Assembly: GCA_963920595.1 (NCBI GenBank)
Contig: OY986946.1
Span: 8,432,001 to 8,496,000, forward strand
Length of the DNA: 64,000 nucleotides
From: Eimeria praecox
Taxonomy: Eukaryota
Direction of reading: 5' to 3'
Shown: positions 4,331 through 63,548 of the stretch, piece after piece
Numbering within the stretch: position 1 is the stretch's first letter
Layout: each line of letters begins with the position of its first letter
The notes under the pieces: model-generated
Databases searched by the model: none
The model's input: only the letters and a program-made list of their open reading frames with translations
Told to the model about the DNA's origin: nothing
Program-made: the position numbers and the translations under genes

Positions 4331-4470
4331 TTCTTCCAGTGTATAGACAGCTAATGAGTTAATAATATTTATTTATATTTATATTTATTTATGTATTTAT
4401 ATATTTATTTATTTTCTAATAAATTTATACAAAAACAAACAAAACAATTCTGTTTATCTCTCTCTCTCTG

Positions 4471-4723
4471 CTAGCTGTTTGATTCTCTCCTAAGCCGTTT
4501 AGCCCTTCTGAGGGGTTTATGCTCCTTCGCAGCAGCAGCAGCAGCAGCAGCTGTTGCTGCTGCTGCTGCAGCAGCAGCAGCAGCAGGGCGAATCCCTTGT
4601 AGGTTTCTCTTCTTTGCTGCTATGTTGCTGCTGTTTGCTGCAGCAATGATGCTGACAGCATCTTGAGAGGAGTTAACATTCTCGTTGCTGCTGTGCTCAG
4701 CTGCAGCAGCTGCTGCTGCTGCT

Positions 4724-4757
<34 letters not shown>

Positions 4758-5234
4758 GGGAGGTGCTGTGCTCTGAGACAGCATCGTGATAAGGTGTGCT
4801 ATCTTCTGATTTAAATTCTACAGCAGCAGCAGCAGCAGCAGCAGCAGCACGCAGACACTTCCTAGGAGAGGCGGTGTTGCCTCTCCCTGCTGCTGCTGCT
4901 GTTGCTGCTGCTGTTGCTGCTGCTGTTGCTGCTGCTGCTGCAGCAGCAGCAGCACCCGGTAACACACCGCCTAAGACAGCAGCAGCAGGTGTGGGGCCCT
5001 GCTGCTGCTGCTGCTGCTGCTGAGGCTGCTGCTGCTGCTGCTGCTGCGGACGGCTTAGAGGCAAAGAAGGCAGCACAGACGTTGAAGCGCTGGCTGCAGC
5101 AGGACGGGCACATCGCCAAGGGCCTGCAGCACACAAAACCCTAAACCCTAAACCCTAAACCCTAAACCCTAAACCCTAACAAAGAGACTTTTCGCGTTGT
5201 GACGCCCAAGAAACAGCTAAAATAAAAGAATTTA

Positions 5235-6043: not shown

Positions 6044-6088
6044 TCACAGCGTCTCCTTTGTTGCTGCTGCTGCTGCTGTTTCTGCTGC

Positions 6089-6159
<71 letters not shown>

Positions 6160-7393
6160 CAGGGCCTGCTGCAGCAGCGCGTGACAGGCAAATCGCGTAA
6201 GGTTTTCTACCCTTCGACTCCAACGCAGCTAAGCATCGACGGAGAGGAGAAGGAAGAGCAGCACGAAAGGAAGGAATCTCCAAATCTACACACAAACCCT
6301 AAACCCTAAACCCTAAACCCTAAACCCTAAACCCTAAACCCTAGATCGTAAATCCTAAACCCTAAATCCTAAACCCTAAATCCTAAATCGTAAACTGTAA
6401 ATACTTTTTCTTTTGCTCGTCGTTAAATGTTTTTATTAGGGTTTACTATTAGGGTCTAGGGTTTAGGGTTTAGGGTTTAGGGTTTTTCTGAGGGTTTGTT
6501 AGGGTTTATTATGAGGGGAGTTTAGGGGTTTATACGTTTTCTTCTAAGGGTTTAGGGTTTAGGGTTTAGGGTTTAGGGTTTATTCTTAGGGTTTATTATA
6601 AATGTTTGTTATTAGGGTTTTGAATACGAGGGTTTGTCTTTAGAGTTATCATCAACAGAGTTTATTCTTAGGGTTTAAGAATAGGGTTTAGGGTTTAGGG
6701 TTTAGGGTTTAGGGTTTAGGGTTAATTCGAAGGGTTTAGGTTATATGTGTTAGTGTTTAGTGTTATTAGTGTTTAATACTACTTATGTTGTTTATGTTAT
6801 TATAGTTTATAGTTATCATAGTTTCAATTTTATTATATTATTATTATATTTATATAATATTGTATATATATATATATATAATTATACTATTAATGTTGTT
6901 ATATTCTTAATGCTACTATAATGTTAATATTATGTTATTATTATTATATTATTATTATTATTTTATTATTACATTATATTATTATTATTATTATTTATTA
7001 TGATTATCATATTATTATGTTATTATAATATTATTATTATTACTATGTTATAATAATATTATAATTAAAATAATTATATTGGTGAGAGTATTATTTATTA
7101 TTATTATTATATTATTATTATACTAATATTGTTACATTATATTATTATTATTACTATTATTATATTATTGTTATTGTATTAATATAATATAATAATAATA
7201 AAAATAATATAATATATTAACTTAATATCTCTACCTGCTAGACAGTTGAGCCCATCCTTGTCACTGTATTACTAATACTATTATTATTATAATTATATTA
7301 TATTATTATTATATTGTTATTATTATTATTATTATACTATTATTATTATTATTATATTAATATATTGTTGTTATTATTATTATTATACAGTAC

Positions 7394-7429
<36 letters not shown>

Positions 7430-9368
7430 ATATTATATTATTATAATTATATTATTATTATAATATAATACTAATAAAATAATATCTTTGCCTGCGAGAT
7501 AGAATGTGAGTCGATTAATGTTATTATACTACGATTATATTATTATTATTATTACTACTAGTATAATTATATTATATTATATTATATATTATTATTAAAA
7601 TATAATAATAATAATATAATAATAATATAATTATACTATACTATAATTATATTATATTATATTATATATTATCATTAAAATATAATAATAATATAACAAT
7701 AATATAATTATAATAATATAATATAATATAATATAATATAATATAATATAATATAATATAATATAATATAATATAATATAATATAATATAATATAATATA
7801 ATATAATATAATATAATATAATATAATATAATATAATATAATATAATATAATATAATATAATATAATATAATATAATATAATATAATATAATATAATATA
7901 ATATAATATAATATAATATAATATAATATAATATAATATAATATAATATAATATAATATAATATAATATAATATAATATAATATAATATAATATAATATA
8001 ATATAATATAATATAATATAATATAATATAATATAATATAATATAATATAATATAATATAATATAATATAATATAATATAATATAATATAATATAATATA
8101 ATATAATATAATATAATATAATATAATATAATATAATATAATATAATATAATATAATATAATATAATATAATATAATATAATATAATATAATATAATATA
8201 ATATAATATAATATAATATAATATAATATAATATAATATAATATAATATAATATAATATAATATAATATAATATAATATAATATAATATAATATAATATA
8301 ATATAATATAATATAATATAATATAATATAATATAATATAATATAATATAATATAATATAATATAATATAATATAATATAATATAATATAATATAATATA
8401 ATATAATATAATATAATATAATATAATATAATATAATATAATATAATATAATATAATATAATATAATATAATATAATATAATATAATATAATATAATATA
8501 ATATAATATAATATAATATAATATAATATAATATAATATAATATAATATAATATAATATAATATAATATAATATAATATAATATAATATAATATAATATA
8601 ATATAATATAATATAATATAATATAATATAATATAATATAATATAATATAATATAATATAATATAATATAATATAATATAATATAATATAATATAATATA
8701 ATATAATATAATATAATATAATATAATATAATATAATATAATATAATATAATATAATATAATATAATATAATATAATATAATATAATATACTACCTGCTA
8801 GATAGAATGTGAGTCCAAGTCTGTTCATTTGCTCGAAGGGCAAATCGTGAAACCAAGGATGAGATAAAGCAGAGTGAGCAGAAAGACGACAAGAGGGAGA
8901 TACATGCAATAATCTAAACAAATAAATAAATAAATAAATAAATAAATTAATTAATTAATTAAATTAATTAGTTATTTAGTTATTATTCGTTAATTTATTA
9001 TTAATTGGTAGAGTGAGCAGAAAGACGACACGAGGGAGATACATGTAATAGTCTAAATAAATAAATAAATAAATAAACAAATTAATTAATTAATTAATTA
9101 ATTAATTAATTAATTAATTAAATTAATTAACTAATTAAATAATTTAATTGGTGAGTGAGTTGATAGACGACAAGACGGAGACAAATGTAAGAGTCTATAC
9201 ACCAAGAAACAAATAATAAAAAGTATTAATTAATTAATTAATTAATATTAATAAATAATTAATAAAAAAACTAAGAAATAAATAAATAAATAAATAAATA
9301 ATAAACAAGCTAGAAAACAAATAATTAATTTAAAAGAGAGGCGTTTGATAATCTAAACAATAAACAAA

Positions 9369-9408
<40 letters not shown>

Positions 9409-9592
9409 AAATAATTAATTATAAGGAGACACATTCTACAACCTATAAAACAAAACTAAAATAAATAAATCAATAAATAAATATGAAATCAATTAATTAG
9501 TAGGAGACACAAGCAACAACAACAGCAACACAAATAATAATAATAAATAAATAAATTAATTAATTAATTAATTAATTAATTAAATAAACAAA

Positions 9593-9627
<35 letters not shown>

Positions 9628-10188
9628 ATATAAGAATGAAAATACAAGAAAATAAAACAAAACTTAGATAAATAAAAAATATTTGACGAGTAGATCAACT
9701 CCTACCCCATCTAACGACGACAAACATAATAAAAATAATAAATATTAAATTAAATTAAATTAAATTAAATTAAATTAAATTAAATTAATTAAATAAAATA
9801 TATAGCAAGTAGATCAAGTCCAAAGACAAGAGAGATGCGTCTCTTAACTTAACTTGATATCTACTAATTATATTAAATTGAATTAAATTAATTAAATTAA
9901 ATTAATTAAATTAAATTAATTAAATTAAATAAATTAAATTAAATTAATTAAATTAAATTAATTAAATTAAATTAATTAAATTAATTAAATTAAATTAATT
10001 AAATTAAATTAAATTAAATTAAATACCTAGCAAGTAGATCCAGTCCTAAAGCATCGAGTGGCGTCCCTCCTCTCTCTACAATAAAATCTAACAGCGCAAA
10101 TTTTCTTTGATGATGCGACAAAGAAGGAAAGGCGTTGAAGAACGTAGTCAGCGACTCCTTACTCTGTCCTGACAGCCTGTGTACAGAA

Positions 10189-10235
<47 letters not shown>

Positions 10236-10610
10236 GAGAGATATCGATATATATATATATATAGATAGATAGATATATAGAAAGGCGTTGAAGAACGTAG
10301 TCAGGGACTCCTTACTCTGTCCTGACAGTCTGTGTACAGAAACATATATATATATATATATATGTAGAGAGAGAGAGAGATCTATCTATCTATATATATA
10401 TATATATATATAGATAGATAGATAGCTATAGATATAGATACATAGATATATAGATAGACAGATAGATAGATATATAGAAAGGCGTTGAAGAAAGTAGTTA
10501 GTGCCTCCTTACTTTGTCTTGACAGTCTGTGTAGAGAAACAGACATAAATATAAATAAATAAGTATATAAATATAAATAAATGCATACATAAATATATAC
10601 ATATCAGCAT

Positions 10611-10663
<53 letters not shown>

Positions 10664-10748
10664 GATAGAAATATAGAAATATATTTATACAGAAATATCT
10701 ATATCTATATATATATATATACATATATACATATATATACATATATAT

Positions 10749-10801
<53 letters not shown>

Positions 10802-11140
10802 ACTAACTGAATAGAACGGACCTGAGCATATCCTGTAGATGTGTGGGGTTATCTGGTTTTCCTAAAACTTTAAATATATTTTCTAATAACATAAACTCCA
10901 TCGCAAATGCCGCTTTTGATATGCCTTGAAATAAAAACCCGAAATTCCATCGAAAAGATTTAATTGAATCTTGCGGCAAACACAACTCAAGAAAGATTAC
11001 TCCGACAGACCAAATGTCGCACGCAGAAGAGTATGAAGCTACCTGAAATTCACACAGACGTGTAGATATATTTATTTATTTATATTTATATATATATATA
11101 TATAGACATATACAGATATTGGAGATAGAGACAGATACAG

Positions 11141-12077: not shown

Positions 12078-12436
12078 GCAACAGCAGCAGCACCACCACC
12101 AGCAACAGCAGCAGCACCACCACCACCACCACCAGCAACAGCAGCAGCACCAGCACCACCCCCACCACCCCCACCACCACCACCAGCAGCACCACCAGCA
12201 CCAGCACCACCAGCATCATCATCATCATCATCATCATCATGTCTATTCTACATACCGGTAGCTTAGCAGCACTTTCACAGTCAGCAGCAGCAGCAAGGAT
12301 TTCTGGCGGTCTGTACGGAAGAGTAACTACTCTACACGATTGCCGCATTGTTAAATGGCTCCAATGAGGGGGGCCTCTAGGGTCTGTGTTGAGAGCAGAT
12401 GCGGCCTCTTCATCCTCATAATGCTGCTGCTGATGC

Positions 12437-12487
<51 letters not shown>

Positions 12488-46870: not shown

Positions 46871-49722
46871 ATGGCTAACAACCGCTATCCTGCAAAGCCA
46901 CAGAGGCTCAGAGCGGCAGACGGAACCTTCCGCTGTTACCGGTGCCCCCAGGAGGTTGCTGTTGCTAACGTACGAGAGAAATGCTGCAGAAACTGTCTGC
47001 TGCTCCTCGTCCGCAAGGCCTTCGCCACAGAGCTGGCGGCCTTGCGCCAGCGGCTCTCCGAGCAGCAGCAGCTGCAGCAGCAGCAGCAGCAGCACCTACA
47101 GCAGCCACAGAAAGCGGATGAGCAGCCGCAGGGGCCTCAGCTTAAGCCACAGCAGCAACAGCAGCTTCAGGAGCAGCAGCCTCAACAACAGCAACCTCAG
47201 CAGCAGGAACAGCCTCATAAGCAGCAGCTTCAGCAGCAGGAATCTCAGAAGGATAGTCATAAAGATGCTGCATGCGGTCTGAGCAGCGGGGGGGAATCAG
47301 AGTCTGTTCCGCTGTACGTTGCAGTGTCTGGGGGTGATGCTAGTTTGTCTTTGCTGCAGCTAGCAGCAGAAAGTATCGAGAAGCGTCTTTCGAGGATGCA
47401 TGCACGGCAGCAGAAGACAGAGGGAAATGCTGCTGGGGAGGGAGGAGGAGGAGGGGGAAGAGGAGGGTTTGGGGCTGGAGGAGGCGAAGCTGACTTCACT
47501 GCATGCATCGCTGTGCATGTAGACATTCAGAGGTTGCTGCGGCCGCCAGCTGCTGTGGTGGAGGCTCGCGTGGGGGAGGCAGGGCTTGCAGGGGGAACCC
47601 AGGGTTTTGGTAGCAGCGTTTCAGGTGTACAGACAGCTGCAGCAGAAGCAACAGCAGCAGCAGCAGAAGGGGGTGTTGTTGTGGGCTTTGCCGCCTCCCC
47701 ACAGAGAGGGAAGCGTCTCCCTCTGCAGATATTCGAGACAGCGTCGGCTATGGGGCAGCACGTACACTGCGTGCTTCTCCATCCTTTAGGAATACCCTTT
47801 TCTTATGTTTCTGTTGAGCAGCAGGAAGGGGGGGCTGAAGGACAAGCCCCCATTGAGGTGTACAGACACCCCGATGGAAGGCTGTGGGGCCGCGAATCGT
47901 TAGAATGCATGCAGAAACAAGAAAGAGAAATGAGGAAACTCCTCGCAGAAACGTTTGCTGCAGACAAAGCAATAGCAGAAAAACTGTGCAGGACACTCAT
48001 GTACGGCACATAAACCCTAAACCCTAAACCCTAAACCCTAATCTTCAACAGACCCACACCCACGGGAACGATAGTCCTCAGCATTAACACTACAAACCCT
48101 AAACCCTAACCCGAAAACCGCCTTTCTTCTAGCCCGAGGGTTTGGGGTGTACAAACACCCCGCCTTGCATGTTAAGGCGTTAGGGCTTAGGGTTTAGGGT
48201 TTAGGGTTTAGCTTGGCCTGCTATGTTCAAGAGGCCGCCGTTGAATTTGTCTGAGGAAGAGGCGGCAGGGAGAGTCTAAGGGGCGATATTGGGGCTGTGC
48301 GGCAACAGCAGCAGCAGCAGCAACAGGAGCAGCTGCATGCGTTCCATGTTTGTTGGTTTATATGTGTCTTTGTGCTGCAGGCTGAAGGCTTTGCGCAGTT
48401 ATTTTAAGAGCATACATAATTCGGGGTGTACGTACACCCCATTTCTTTGCATGGGGGACACAGCATCTGCAGCAGCACTTTCTGTCTTAGAACGCCTCAG
48501 CTATGGGGAGGGTCGTTGTCTTAGCCTGGAGACAGCAGCGATAGACACTAGGTAGGAGCTTTCTCCAAGTGTTTCCCGTGAGGGGGTTTGGGGCTGCATG
48601 CAGGGTTAAGCTGCTAGGGTTTAGAGGACTCAATGCTGGGTTTAGGGTTTAGGGTTTAGGGTTTGGGAGTGTGTGTTTTTCTTGCAGACAGAGCCCTCTA
48701 TTTCTTTTGTGTCGTCCTTTGGTGTTGCTTGAGAAGAAGGAGATGGCGTTGTATCGTCTGTTTGTGGGGCTGGAGAGTTTGAATGTTTCTTCTTTTGCTT
48801 TTCATATGAATGCATGCACGGGGCTTGCTGAGGAGAAAGCCCCAACGAATCCATATGCTTCTGTTCGCTGGCTGCTGCAGCAGTTTCTTATAGACATGCA
48901 CAGTAGTAACAACGCAACAGCCCATAACGTAAGCAGCGCCGTCAGGGGGCTTGAAGACCCCCTCGTGAATTCAGACACTCCTATGAGCAAACGTAAGCCG
49001 AATCTTGGGGCTGCATGCATGCACGCATGCATGCATGCATGCATGCACTGCCAGGAGCGCAGTCAGTTCTGCCGAATGCTCGACATAACCCCCCTAGTGC
49101 AGCTCGCATTCACGCATGCATGCATGCATGCGTGCTTGTACAGTGTGCATCCGTGAATGTATCCTTGCATGCATGCATGCATGCATGCATGGGGGCCAAT
49201 GTGGGGTTTGTGCGGGGCGTTGCATGCGCTGCAGCGTGCTGCCTCTGCTGGAAAGTCCCAGCAGTGGACGTCAACTGCCTACTGGAGGACCGGAGTGTCT
49301 TTACACCTAAACAGAGACAGGTGAGCAGCGAGCAGTGATGGTCTGACTCTGCTGCTGCTGCTGGAGAGGAAGTTGAATAAGTAGCCTTGGGGGGCCCCGG
49401 GGCAAGAAGGGGTTTAGGGAAGGGAGGGAGGTTGCACTGTCTGCATGCGTTGTTTTACATTGGGCGGGTTGACGCGTGCAGTATGCTTGTCAATTTTGTC
49501 TTAAGCTGTACGGATACGGTGTATCCGTGACTGTCTGTGAGATTGGGGCTTGCATGCATGCGTTTCTTGTGCATGCAGATTATAACAGAGTATATCCAGC
49601 CCCGAGAAAAGACCCAAGACTTTTGCTTCGCATGCATGCGCGATGCTACGGCGGCGGAGAGCGCTGCTGCTTTTGTCTTTGAGTTTTGTCTGTCCCCTGC
49701 AGAGGGGGAGGGCACTGCTTAA
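46871..49722 (+). CDS. CTU2: Cytoplasmic tRNA 2-thiolation protein 2 (Ctu2/Ncs2), 5 exons, about 611 aa
   Basis: Exons 46871-48000, 48381-48551, 48688-48992, 49235-49320, 49579-49722, in phase. N-terminal CYRC..CRNC, degenerate PP-loop VAVSGGDAS, MGDTA..YGEG, RPLVLLEKKEMALY, C-terminal CCLC..CFAC. Confidence 0.8.
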
Positions 49723-60646: not shown

Positions 60647-63548
60647 GAGCTGAAGCCCAGATTGGTTCCTACGAGCTTGTCTCTAGCTAACTAAGAAAGC
60701 AATAGTCCAGTATGTTGGGACTAAAGTAATCAAACAAACATTAAAAAGCAAAACCCCCCTTCCATGGGAGTCTAGGCTGTCTTCCAGAAAAAGACCTTGC
60801 CGCCGTTTCTTCCGTGTGCGGACCGCCCTGGTGTCACCCAAGGACACCCGGGCGGAGCGAGGGCCCTGCTGCGGTTCAGCCTGGGCCTACTTTGCAGCCG
60901 GGTCAAATATATACGATTTCCTTGTCTGATTAGTTTCTATATATGCAATAGTGACGTTTATTCTATTTTATGTGGCCTCTGTTGGTTGTTCCAGCGCAAC
61001 ACGGTAGTGCTGCGCATGCGTTTCTCCGGTGCGCATCTGGTGATCTCTCGCCCTTTCTACTCGATTTCTTGCCTGTCCGAGTCGCTTCTCCCCTCTCCTC
61101 AACGCTTTCCATCCCTACTAATACCCAGGGTGGTGTAGCTCGGGCAATCGCTTCCCAGCGTACGCGAGGTTGCACATTGGCTGGGGCATTCGCCATTGCG
61201 TCTGTGTCTAAGACAGTCAATGCATCCGTAGAATGATGCCTGAATGTACAGGCGCCACTAAAAAGTCCCCCAGTTAGCAGTCATGAATGCCCCTCCAGCA
61301 GACGATCAATGTGCAACTGCTGCCCGACGGCAGCCGTGAACCAACAGGCCTTGTGTAAACGGCATATACGCAGGAACGGCATATACGCAGGACTAGCGAC
61401 CCTGCTATGGCTATGCAAAGGGAACTTCGCGATGCAGCTGTGTCAAGTAGCCCCTCAAAACTAGGTCCACGCACGTCTAGCTCAAACACTGCTGACATGC
61501 CTATACGACACAGTCCATTTGCCCTGCGTCGCCCTGTAGGTAGTAACTGTCGTCACCACGGTAGTGTATCGTCTTCTTTCGGTACAGCAGGGGAGGCATG
61601 CATCACTTCCCTACTGCGAGAATCTCTAGTCTCTAAGCAAAATGCCTCTACTTCAGGAATAGAGGACCAGCGCACACCCTGTTTCTAATCCAATACCACC
61701 CTCCAGCTCGTCCTTAGCTCGTCCTTAGCCTTTTGAGAGTGGACTTCCCCTCTTGTCCGCTGTCGAAACCTCTGCTTCCGGCTTGTGGAGGCATCGGTAG
61801 CGTTCTGCCCGCTGGATGATGCGCTTTGCATCACCTTGCTATAGCATGAGTGTTTAGGATGCTCGCCCCTCACAACTCATAGACTTGGCCGTTTAAACGC
61901 TTCAGGTGTTCTCTTTTTTCAAGGACCCTCGCATTCTTTCCGACTATTTCACAAGACCGTTGCCGCAGCTTAGCCGATGCACAGCAATCTCTACCGTAGT
62001 GGCCTTCGCCCCCACACCTTTTGCGAATTTCTCGGTTCGGGGGTATCCTCTTGCCACACGACGGGGAGCCCTTTGCCATGTACCCCTTGCCCTGGTACTG
62101 GTAATACACTAAACTATCCCTGTCTCCTGATAACGAATTGTGTCCCCCCAATTTTGGCTACAGCCAGAGGACGCGTGCTCCTGGCTAGCCCTCCGGCTAA
62201 ACTAAATTTGAATTCACGCAGTCGCCTTCTCGATTCTTCCTCTGTAGCGCCCTACGGGGAAGCTGTGGATGCTAACTTCAGTAATGCTTCTCTCCAAGGG
62301 TTGAACTGCACCGTGCGCCTTTGAGTTATTTTTGCGTTCTCTGCAGGGTGTTGGTACTCATATCCCTACTTGCTCCCGGGCCGAATACAGAGGGCCAAAC
62401 AAGTATTTAAAGACAGCCTACGCTACAATCTACAACTCTAGCGCACGCAGCAAAAATGCATTGGCTGTGTGCGCATGCTGGGCTGCCTTACAGCTCTAGC
62501 TGCAGCAAGGCGCGTTGCAGCCCATAACAGGCCTCTCTGTGTCCCCACCAGTACCTGGAACTTGGCCCGCCGTGCCCAGGTGGCCACGAGGCTGGAGGGG
62601 GGGTCAGGTGCTTTTCGCAAACCCTTTCCGCAAGACTTTGACTCTATTGCAGCTTATTATGGCCCAAGGATAAGGCCAAGGGCTCTAGTTACACAGGGTG
62701 TGCAGCGAACATCTGATCTGCACATACCGTGCCATTATTCTCGCAAAGTTAACCGGCCTGGTCTTCTTGCCACTGATTCGTTGCCATTTAGGATATAAGG
62801 GCCGCTGCTTTAGTATTACTGAACCATTGTATCAAGCCACATTTCAAAGAGACCAGCCAGCTATGTCCGCCCCTCTGTCCTTTAGGAGCATCCCGTACCC
62901 CAGGGCGTCTGATGCTTCACCAGAGCAAGAAGAATCCTCATGTGCTTTCCCCTCCCAGGAGGGATATGCAATAACACGACTGAATACTGCCGCTGTGTAG
63001 CCTTATGCTGCATCAAGCGTGGGCCCGTTCTAAGCCTTCGCCGTAATCGAGAGTCCTGCTAGACTCCTGTACACTAGACATCCAGGGGTATGTTGGAATA
63101 GGTGCAGCAATCAGACGCCTGTTATACAAGCGCATAGCCACCGTCTGCTTCGGCATCGGAAGCGAAAAGCATCAAGGTCCAGAAAAGTTAAAAGGAGAGT
63201 TCGTTGTCGTGTGTACAGGGTTTTAAAAAAATTTTACCTCCCGCGCAGGCCCCCAATTGTGGTGCGCTAACCCCAGCTTGGATCCTACTGCGTGATTGCA
63301 GCTAATTATGAATGCAATACTGCAGTGTCTAGGCACTAAAGAAATCAAACAAACATTAAAAAAAGCAAAACCCTCCCTCCGTGGCAGTCTGGGCTGCTTT
63401 TTAGAAAAAGTTCTCTCCGCCGTTTCCCAACCAAACAAACATTAAAATGCAAAGCCTTCCCTCCGTTGGGTCTATGCTGTTTTCCAGGAAAAAAGACCTC
63501 TCGGCCTTCCCTGTTGTTCGGTGTGACTGGGTGCCACCCGGGCCCTGC
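60647..63548 (-). mobile_element. Decayed LTR-retrotransposon-like element (gag zinc knuckles and protease remnant) between diverged direct repeats
   Basis: Minus-strand degenerate CCHC knuckles VYYQYQGKGYMAKGSPS and RKRCGGEGHYGRDC (about 62109-61984), then LTVLDTDAMAN resembling the aspartic protease LDTGA motif (about 61220-61188); broken frames. Homologous direct repeats at about 60647-60868 and 63264-63548. Confidence 0.7.

What the first reader, a model, noticed from the sequence alone, without database searches (positions are those of the whole stretch)
8871..10541. Exon-edge 'echoes' in kinase introns that diverge mainly at synonymous sites
Seen: introns 4 and 5 contain serial copies of an acceptor plus the first ~15-17 codons of the next exon, spaced by AT microsatellites. 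Compared codon by codon with the real exon: copy 10280-10344 has 2 synonymous and 0 non-synonymous changes (AGG>AGA, TCG>TCC); copy 10477-10541 has 4 and 2; copy 9010-9057 has 3 and 0 (TTA>CTA, TTG>TTA, TCT>TCG); copy 9152-9197 has 6 and 2 (V>L, A>T). The total is 15 synonymous to 4 non-synonymous codons, with two changes shared between sister copies. Divergence rises with distance from the exon, the AG acceptors are kept, and no GT donor follows the copies. Established: neutral decay of an intronic copy should give mostly non-synonymous differences. Inference: these segments evolved under protein-level selection. They could be exon-edge alleles from diverged haplotypes stacked by unequal recombination in flanking microsatellites, gene-conversion templates, or alternatively used exon parts. 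I know of no described system like this.
Basis: partly seen in the sequence, partly recalled or inferred. Interest (0 to 1): 0.9.

Follow-up and report, generated by a model that had tools for sequence, protein, structure and literature searches.

The report
Duplicated exon edges in parasite introns
In a kinase gene of an Eimeria-like gut parasite, the edges of two exons are copied in tandem into the neighbouring repeat-rich introns; the copies are likely dead leftovers, but those at exon starts differ from the real exon mostly at silent positions, which simple decay explains poorly.

Summary
The two copies of the exon-5 start are also present, with their junction, in contigs of two studies at the depth of the exon, so they are not a mixed-species assembly. 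The exon-6 copies were not checked on reads. The copies are units of short tandem arrays (exon edge + junction + compound microsatellite + splice site), and the last unit is the working exon. Its null was wrong: a dead copy of a constrained exon should give dN/dS near 0.5. The donor-side copies fit this (0.54; 5 synonymous to 12 non-synonymous codons). The acceptor-side copies do not (14:4; dN/dS 0 and 0.10; P 0.0004-0.006 in simulations). Pooled over all eight copies, P is 0.004-0.10. Three of the four amino-acid changes in the acceptor copies hit residues invariant in the orthologues examined, and three of four read-throughs hit stops, so present function is unlikely. Best reading: decaying tandem duplicates, with the excess a fluctuation in a hand-picked half (0.5). 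Main rival: capture from a diverged haplotype (0.3). A genome-wide count would decide.

The parts
13633..14809 (-). Kinase exon 1 (ATG, low-complexity inserts, N-lobe)
   Evidence: matches Cyclospora CMGC kinase P0001
12840..13022 (-). Exon 2 (catalytic loop), ending at a GC donor
   Evidence: (Pkinase E 6.5e-10)
12256..12593 (-). Exon 3 (activation segment with poly-Q insert)
10822..11042 (-). Exon 4
10477..10541 (-). Far copy of exon-5 acceptor plus first 50 nt (exon-like part 10477-10526); 4 synonymous, 2 non-synonymous codons (G>R, S>A)
   Evidence: 6-difference contigs in runs X1, X2, X3
10280..10344 (-). Near copy of exon-5 acceptor plus first 50 nt (exon-like part 10280-10329); 2 synonymous, 0 non-synonymous; 153 nt upstream of exon 5, in frame and without a stop
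   Evidence: 1-difference contigs listed for runs X2 and X3
10027..10176 (-). Exon 5 (working terminal unit of both its arrays); synonymous SNP at 10056
9802..9844 (-).
9683..9714 (-).
9153..9197 (-). Far copy of exon-6 acceptor plus first ~42 nt; 5 synonymous, 2 non-synonymous (V>L, A>T); stop after 20 codons
9010..9061 (-). Near copy of exon-6 acceptor plus first 43 nt; 3 synonymous, 0 non-synonymous; stop after 16 codons
8795..8913 (-). Exon 6 (kinase subdomain XI)
7492..7512 (-).
7235..7253 (-). Weak far copy of the exon-6 3' end, GT kept, 3-nt deletion; aligned by eye, below the shuffle limit
   Evidence: homologous spacer
7068..7084 (-). Intron-6 site resembling the junction of the far exon-6 acceptor copy; possible source of that junction through a 5-nt microhomology
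   Evidence: 5 of 2000 local shuffles reach the score; post hoc; the near copy's junction does not stand out, 1836 of 2000
6044..6285 (-). Exon 7 start; its 3' end and later exons were not resolved

Best explanation
The copies are units of short tandem arrays that span the splice sites of exons 5 and 6; they are likely dead duplicates that arose once by a repair or slippage error, likely multiplied by unequal exchange, and their surplus of silent changes is probably a chance fluctuation on top of the expected bias. Shown: each unit is an exon edge plus junction plus compound microsatellite plus splice-site tail; sister copies share the junction; the last unit is the working exon; arrays lie on both sides of both exons, only in the three most AT-rich introns. 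Inferred: a microhomology-mediated template switch made the first unit; misaligned exchange added exon-proximal units, which gives the divergence gradient; splicing ignores the copies because they have only one splice site. After that the exon changes only at silent sites and the copy changes anywhere, so dN/dS near 0.5 is expected. The donor-side copies show this. The acceptor side falls below it, in a subset chosen by eye and with three exon-side events counted twice.
For: Spacers between units are homologous and junctions are shared. The near copy groups with the exon in the intron tail and the body, which gives the tree ((exon, near), far). The copies carry this lineage's own residues where other Eimeria and Cyclospora differ, so they arose in this lineage. 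Donor-side copies: 5:12 codons, positions 3/9/12, dN/dS 0.54, 2 indels, 3 of 4 GT lost. Three of 4 acceptor-copy replacements hit residues invariant in the orthologues examined. Three of 4 read-throughs hit stops. Pooled P is 0.04 at the middle null value, range 0.004-0.10. Introns 4-6 have GC 0.22, 0.14 and 0.11 against 0.34-0.56 for introns 1-3, which have no copies. Two unnamed proteins (P0011, P0012) differ by one 13-residue tandem unit just before the same exon-6 start, so this intron end also duplicates in a related lineage (protein only).
Against: The acceptor side alone rejects the neutral model: P 0.0004-0.006, 0 of 1545 accepted runs with an AT-biased copy and P 0.0006 without, and 0.002-0.003 with array turnover. 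No second-position change occurs in 63 codon comparisons. The far copies have pS 0.49 against pN 0.075. Acceptor and donor sides differ (Fisher P 0.007; 0.024 with only the core donor blocks), and that split is a natural one. Donor-copy boundaries were set by local alignment and by eye, and one codon beside a gap was left out.
Confidence: 0.5

Rival explanations
1. The acceptor copies were working exon starts in another, diverged haplotype or sister lineage, or in a once-functional duplicate exon, until recently. They were captured when recombination that began in the conserved exon ran into unalignable microsatellite intron and was resolved by a template switch. They have decayed only briefly since.
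For: The far copies look long constrained and recently dead: dS about 0.8, dN 0.08, with most replacements at invariant residues. The data become ordinary only if the exon side carries about 5-8 times more silent divergence than the copy's own decay (P 0.08-0.20). The exon-5 tails differ at only 0 and 1 of about 14 nt. The far exon-6 junction resembles an intron-6 site, as a template switch or a deletion in a whole-exon duplicate would leave. Sample S1 carries two exon-5 alleles.
Against: Present allele diversity is small: one listed SNP in the 150-nt exon 5 across two studies, far below pS 0.22-0.49. Sister copies share one junction, so several captures from graded lineages at two exons are needed. 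The donor-side copies show no such signal. A review states that viable hybridisation between Eimeria species remains unclear (PMC7564333, passage). No sister-lineage DNA was found.
Confidence: 0.3
2. The copies decay neutrally, but silent sites at the real exon start changed faster than neutral. Selection would have strengthened the true acceptor against upstream decoys, or GC-biased conversion acted on the exon.
For: The three exon-only changes lie at exon nt 1, 2 and 7. Two of them move +1 to G and +2 to T, the commonest letters at those places among this gene's six acceptors (4 of 6 each). Downstream donor copies may stay silent by scanning, as reported for F7 IVS7 (PMC1557585, abstract), which would give the asymmetry.
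Against: A 5-fold or greater acceleration along the whole 45 nt is needed. All four decoy AGs are intact, although losing one would be the simplest fix. There are only three events.
Confidence: 0.1
3. The copies are used now, as alternative acceptors giving an inserted or truncated kinase, or as DNA templates that convert or replace the exon start, and are kept by protein-level selection.
For: The AG is kept in 4 of 4 copies. The near exon-5 copy is in frame and stop-free, which would give a 51-residue insertion. The near copies have no replacement in 32 codons.
Against: Three of 4 read-throughs meet stops. Use of the internal GTAAG would give a 14-nt frameshifting micro-exon. G>R, V>L and A>T hit invariant residues. 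By population-genetic inference, conversion frequent enough to purge replacements (rate about 1/Ne or more) would also erase the silent divergence.
Confidence: 0.06
4. The copies are an assembly chimera of mixed strains or species.
For: No listed contig spans the whole exon-5 array, and the exon-6 copies were not checked on reads. Depths in run X1 are uneven (376 for the exon start, 1476 for the far copy).
Against: Runs X2 and X3 (two studies, 2023 and 2013) each hold the exon and both copies at similar per-contig depth (234/243/238 and 31/32.5/25), with the copy-to-microsatellite junction as a loose end. X3 shows a single version of the rest of the exon.
Confidence: 0.04

Closest known systems
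Human F7 intron 7 (IVS7) 37-bp VNTR spanning the exon 7-intron 7 boundary (PMC1557585, abstract read)
   Same: A tandem array whose terminal unit holds the working splice site, followed by intronic copies of the exon edge that carry pseudo splice sites.
   Different: The F7 pseudo-sites are identical in sequence and on the donor side only. Here the units are about 120-350 nt or more, built on microsatellite spacers, lie on both sides of two exons, and are graded in divergence. Copy-number variation and silence of the copies were not tested here.
Potato RdRp intron/exon tandem duplication (PMC4974935, Results and Discussion read)
   Same: Tandem duplication of an intron 3' end plus the 5' side of the next exon; a GTAAG motif lies in the duplicated exon part.
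   Different: In potato the cryptic donor is used and a new intron is supported by RNA-seq reads. Here use of the GTAAG would give a 14-nt frameshift, and there are no RNA data.
Internal gene duplication (Gao and Lynch 2009; seen only as cited in PMC4974935)
   Same: Partial intragenic duplications that straddle exon-intron borders.
   Different: The acceptor-side bias to silent differences is not a feature I found described (searches).
Mutually exclusive tandem exon duplicates (recalled)
   Same: Exon copies that differ mainly at silent sites.
   Different: Those are full-length with both splice sites; these cover a third of the exon or less and have one site.
Silent-cassette gene conversion systems such as vlsE, msp2 and VSG (recalled)
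   Same: Partial gene copies near an expressed locus.
   Different: Those vary at amino-acid level in surface antigens and have many cassettes. Here the gene is a conserved kinase, there are two copies per edge, and the differences are mostly silent.

Membership tests
Tandem array spanning a splice site (F7 IVS7 type) | Head-to-tail units that include the exon edge and splice site, the terminal unit being the working one | tested here: met
   TRF periods 153 and 197 at exon 5; shared junctions and homologous spacers
Tandem array spanning a splice site (F7 IVS7 type) | Unit number varies between individuals | tested here: inconclusive
   The same two exon-5 copies are present in both studies and no contig spans the array
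Tandem array spanning a splice site (F7 IVS7 type) | Pseudo splice sites are silent in vivo | not testable with these tools
   Needs RNA reads across the junctions
Neutrally decaying intronic exon fragment | dN/dS against the exon about 0.5 (donor-side copies) | tested here: met
   0.54 over 36 codons; binomial P 0.65-0.91
Neutrally decaying intronic exon fragment | dN/dS against the exon about 0.5 (acceptor-side copies) | tested here: not met
   0 and 0.10; P 0.0004-0.006
Intron gain by tandem duplication (potato RdRp type) | Upstream copy becomes an exon through a donor that keeps the frame | tested here: not met
   The internal GTAAG at nt 15 gives 14 nt; no GT at the copy ends
Mutually exclusive duplicated exons | Full-length copies with both acceptor and donor | tested here: not met
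   Copies cover about 42-50 of 119-150 nt or less, with one splice site each
Gene-conversion cassette system | Exon alleles that carry cassette states; amino-acid-level variation | tested here: inconclusive
   Only one exon-5 SNP is listed, outside the acceptor-copied part; contigs drop rare variants; the differences are mostly silent
Introgressed or captured allele fragments | Copy states match a sister lineage's exon | tested here: inconclusive
   None of the 4 acceptor-copy replacements appears in the orthologous proteins aligned or read; no sister-lineage DNA was obtained
Protein kinase (Pfam PF00069), CMGC/CDK-like | Kinase domain match and orthology | tested here: met
   Exon 2 scores 39.3 bits against a cut-off of 31.7; exon 4 is below the cut-off; exons 5 and 6 have no hit alone. 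69% identity to the Cyclospora CMGC kinase over exons 3-6

The most novel reading that the evidence does not exclude
In repeat-rich Eimeria genes, recombination between diverged lineages stalls where conserved exons meet unalignable microsatellite introns and leaves stacked exon starts from the other lineage in the intron. Such copies would be a genome-wide, ordered record of past hybridisation that could be read from a single haploid assembly.
Probability: 0.2. Interest if true: 0.8.

Novelty: new variant of a known kind. Interest (0 to 1): 0.4.

Why it matters
If the best reading holds, this is a small but clear case of how microsatellite-rich coccidian introns grow, by tandem duplication across splice sites. 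It also warns that exon-versus-copy comparisons are biased to silent changes by construction. If the acceptor-side excess holds genome-wide, the copies would record exchange between diverged Eimeria lineages, a question a 2020 review calls unclear (PMC7564333), or selection at exon starts against decoy acceptors. One genome and its annotation are enough to test it.

Tried and rejected
No whole genome is held for this window, so there was no genome-wide test. No RNA holder was listed, so expression was not examined. Run X11 (another organism) laid 0 contigs on the exon-5 stretch. The exon-6 stretch was not checked on reads. Window-wide self-comparisons: of 71 hits, 20 passed the complexity and region filters (hits starting at 22500-23700 were dropped), 7 are this gene's copies, and none of the other 13 looked like an exon-edge copy. 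Other genes were not annotated, so this is a weak negative. Metagenome scans: 0 of 130 stretches confirmed for exon 5; 2 of 42 for exon 6, both 58% over 19 residues and treated as unrelated kinases, not read further. The representative search gave 4 hits, three known orthologues and one unrelated repeat protein. Neutral models that failed to explain the acceptor side: transition bias and base composition, AT-biased decay, array birth and death with 1-2-unit slips. In one search the far exon-6 donor copy was out of register; its donor-side totals (4:17) are void and replaced (5:12). The idea that the far exon-5 donor copy is an ancestral state was rejected because the exon's residues are invariant in the five orthologues aligned. 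Earlier-findings look-ups: three empty, one near match. Seven paper searches found no description of graded exon-edge copies with silent bias. The library lacks most subscription papers, and the main chicken-Eimeria genome papers did not appear in the listings.

Full report
Setting. The window has CAG runs and AAACCCT heptamers, which are described as typical of Eimeria genomes (PMC4287421 and PMC7564333, passages). The gene is a minus-strand CMGC/CDK-like kinase with exons at 14809-13633, 13022-12840, 12593-12256, 11042-10822, 10176-10027 (E5), 8913-8795 (E6) and from 6285. Orthologues were found in Cyclospora, four named Eimeria species, a partial E. tenella protein and unnamed fragments. 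None is identical, and the species was not determined. No whole genome is held.

Observation. All four copies are where stated, scoring 48-94 against shuffle limits of 24-32. Codon counts are 2/0, 4/2, 3/0 and 5/2, so 14 synonymous to 4 non-synonymous. Changes by codon position are 6/0/15 over 63 codon comparisons, and all four AGs are intact. Three changes are shared by sister copies. The near copy otherwise groups with the exon, including in the intron tail, so these are best read as exon-side events counted twice.

Reality of the copies. Three of 24 listed runs, from two studies, hold half or more of the stretch's words. On 10020-10560, runs X2 and X3 each give an exon contig, a 1-difference contig and a 6-difference contig at per-contig depths 234/243/238 and 31/32.5/25. 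X1, X2 and X3 all show the copy-to-microsatellite junction as a loose end at 10127. X3 differs from the window at 10056, a silent Leu SNP, so it is not the same haplotype. One study may be the window's source, X1 depths are uneven, no piece spans the array, and 15 records were not shown. A mixed-species chimera is unlikely for E5. The E6 copies were not checked on reads.

Anatomy. Sister copies end at the same exon position and run into the same junction, and the spacers between units are homologous compound microsatellites. Each set is therefore a tandem array whose last unit is the working exon. The E5 3' end recurs at 9844-9802 and 9714-9683, and the E6 3' end at 7512-7492 and, weakly and aligned by eye, at 7253-7235. 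Three of these four have lost the GT. Copies occur only in introns 4-6 (GC 0.22, 0.14, 0.11) and not in introns 1-3. The far E6 junction resembles an intron-6 site at 7068-7084 through a 5-nt microhomology (5 of 2000 local shuffles, post hoc; the near copy's junction does not stand out). That would fit a template switch or a deletion in a larger duplicate. Two unnamed proteins that read intron tail into the same E6 start differ by one 13-residue tandem unit (P0011, P0012), so this intron end duplicates in a relative too.

Statistics. After duplication the exon gains silent changes only and the copy gains all kinds, so dN/dS near 0.5 is expected. Simulated on the real codons with the tree ((exon, near), far), the synonymous share is 0.31-0.42 and P(4 or fewer replacements) is 0.0004-0.006 over 12 settings. 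AT-biased decay does not help, nor does a birth-death array with unequal exchange and selection on the terminal unit (P 0.002-0.003 at three rates). The data become ordinary only with about 5-8 times extra silent divergence on the exon side (P 0.08-0.20). Nei-Gojobori values: near acceptor copies pS 0.22, pN 0; far acceptor copies pS 0.49, pN 0.075, ratio 0.10; donor copies pS 0.31, pN 0.19, ratio 0.54. The donor copies give 5:12 codons in 36 plus two indels. Acceptor versus donor Fisher P is 0.007, and the pooled binomial P is 0.0035, 0.037 or 0.097 for null shares 0.31, 0.38 and 0.42. Leaving out the weak copy and the distal block gives 4:8 and a pooled P of 0.001-0.036.

Orthologues. The copies carry residues peculiar to this lineage, such as most of the E5 start and the Cys in E6, so they postdate its split from the species examined. 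None of the four acceptor-copy replacements occurs in those orthologues. G>R, V>L and A>T fall on invariant columns, which looks like decay and not functional variation. One donor-copy change (P>H) restores the residue of the orthologues, which may mark an older exon state or chance.

Function. Read-through from the copy acceptors meets stops in three of four cases. The near E5 copy is in frame and open, adding 51 residues, about two-thirds of them microsatellite-coded. A GTAAG motif inside the E5 copies would give a 14-nt micro-exon. Indirect selection through gene conversion fails by inference: a rate high enough to purge replacements would erase the silent divergence.

Mechanism and odds. 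Shown: arrays across four splice sites, presence of the E5 copies in two studies, neutral-like donor side, silent-biased acceptor side. Inferred: origin by template switch, growth by unequal exchange, silence in splicing. For the excess I give 0.5 to fluctuation in a subset picked by eye from a very large scan, because four copies made in the same gene are neutral. I give 0.3 to capture from a diverged haplotype or a once-functional duplicate, 0.1 to exon-side acceleration, 0.06 to present function and 0.04 to artefact. These odds are judgement, not computed.

Comparison. The structure works like the F7 IVS7 repeat that spans an exon-intron boundary (PMC1557585, abstract and outline) and like the potato RdRp intron/exon duplication (PMC4974935, passages and Results and Discussion). 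It fails the tests for intron gain and for mutually exclusive exons. Seven paper searches (listings only, except the four papers named) found no description of graded exon-edge copies with silent bias. The library is incomplete and no supplements were read. An earlier AI note on a short ADAM19 exon piece with only silent changes was judged ordinary by its follow-up; it is a lead, unchecked here.

Verdict. The feature is real and a new variant of a known kind. It has one statistically odd property that is unexplained and cheap to test genome-wide. Interest 0.4.

Noticed in passing
window 9348-9360, 9420-9440, 9500-9515 (minus strand): Fainter remnants resembling the exon-6 acceptor and start, including a 13-nt exact match to the acceptor; below the shuffle limit and not scored.
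   Followed up: partly
window 12839-12840: Intron 2 of the kinase starts with a GC donor.
   Followed up: partly
window 7569-8790: A 1.2-kb ATATA pentanucleotide array (244 copies, 96% matches) lies just after the exon-6 donor; its length was not checked on reads.
   Followed up: no
window 10027-11042 (exons 4 and 5): This lineage's kinase is much more diverged in exon 4 and the exon-5 start (about 10 of 17 residues) than the orthologues are from each other.
   Followed up: partly
proteins P0011 and P0012: Two unnamed read-throughs from a related Eimeria-like genome differ by one 13-residue tandem unit at the 3' end of the same intron before exon 6.
   Followed up: partly
window 60653-60810 and 63269-63510: Decayed direct repeats about 2.6 kb apart (about 80% identity) with no convincing ORF of 120 aa or more between them; possibly LTR-like remains.
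   Followed up: partly
window 23067-23567: Minisatellite of about 19-nt GGAGACAG-containing units.
   Followed up: no
window 24528-24712: Cluster of short CGATCCCA-containing repeats after an AT-rich tract, with one inverted copy.
   Followed up: no
window, many sites (for example 15327, 17528, 21532, 35978-36214, 47620-48440): Recurrent near-palindromic GGTGTAYACACC-like and TGCATGCA motifs in non-coding DNA.
   Followed up: no
window about 4470-4830 (minus strand): Short peptides matching the C-terminus of the Cyclospora orthologue suggest that the kinase gene continues beyond exon 7 (seen by eye).
   Followed up: no
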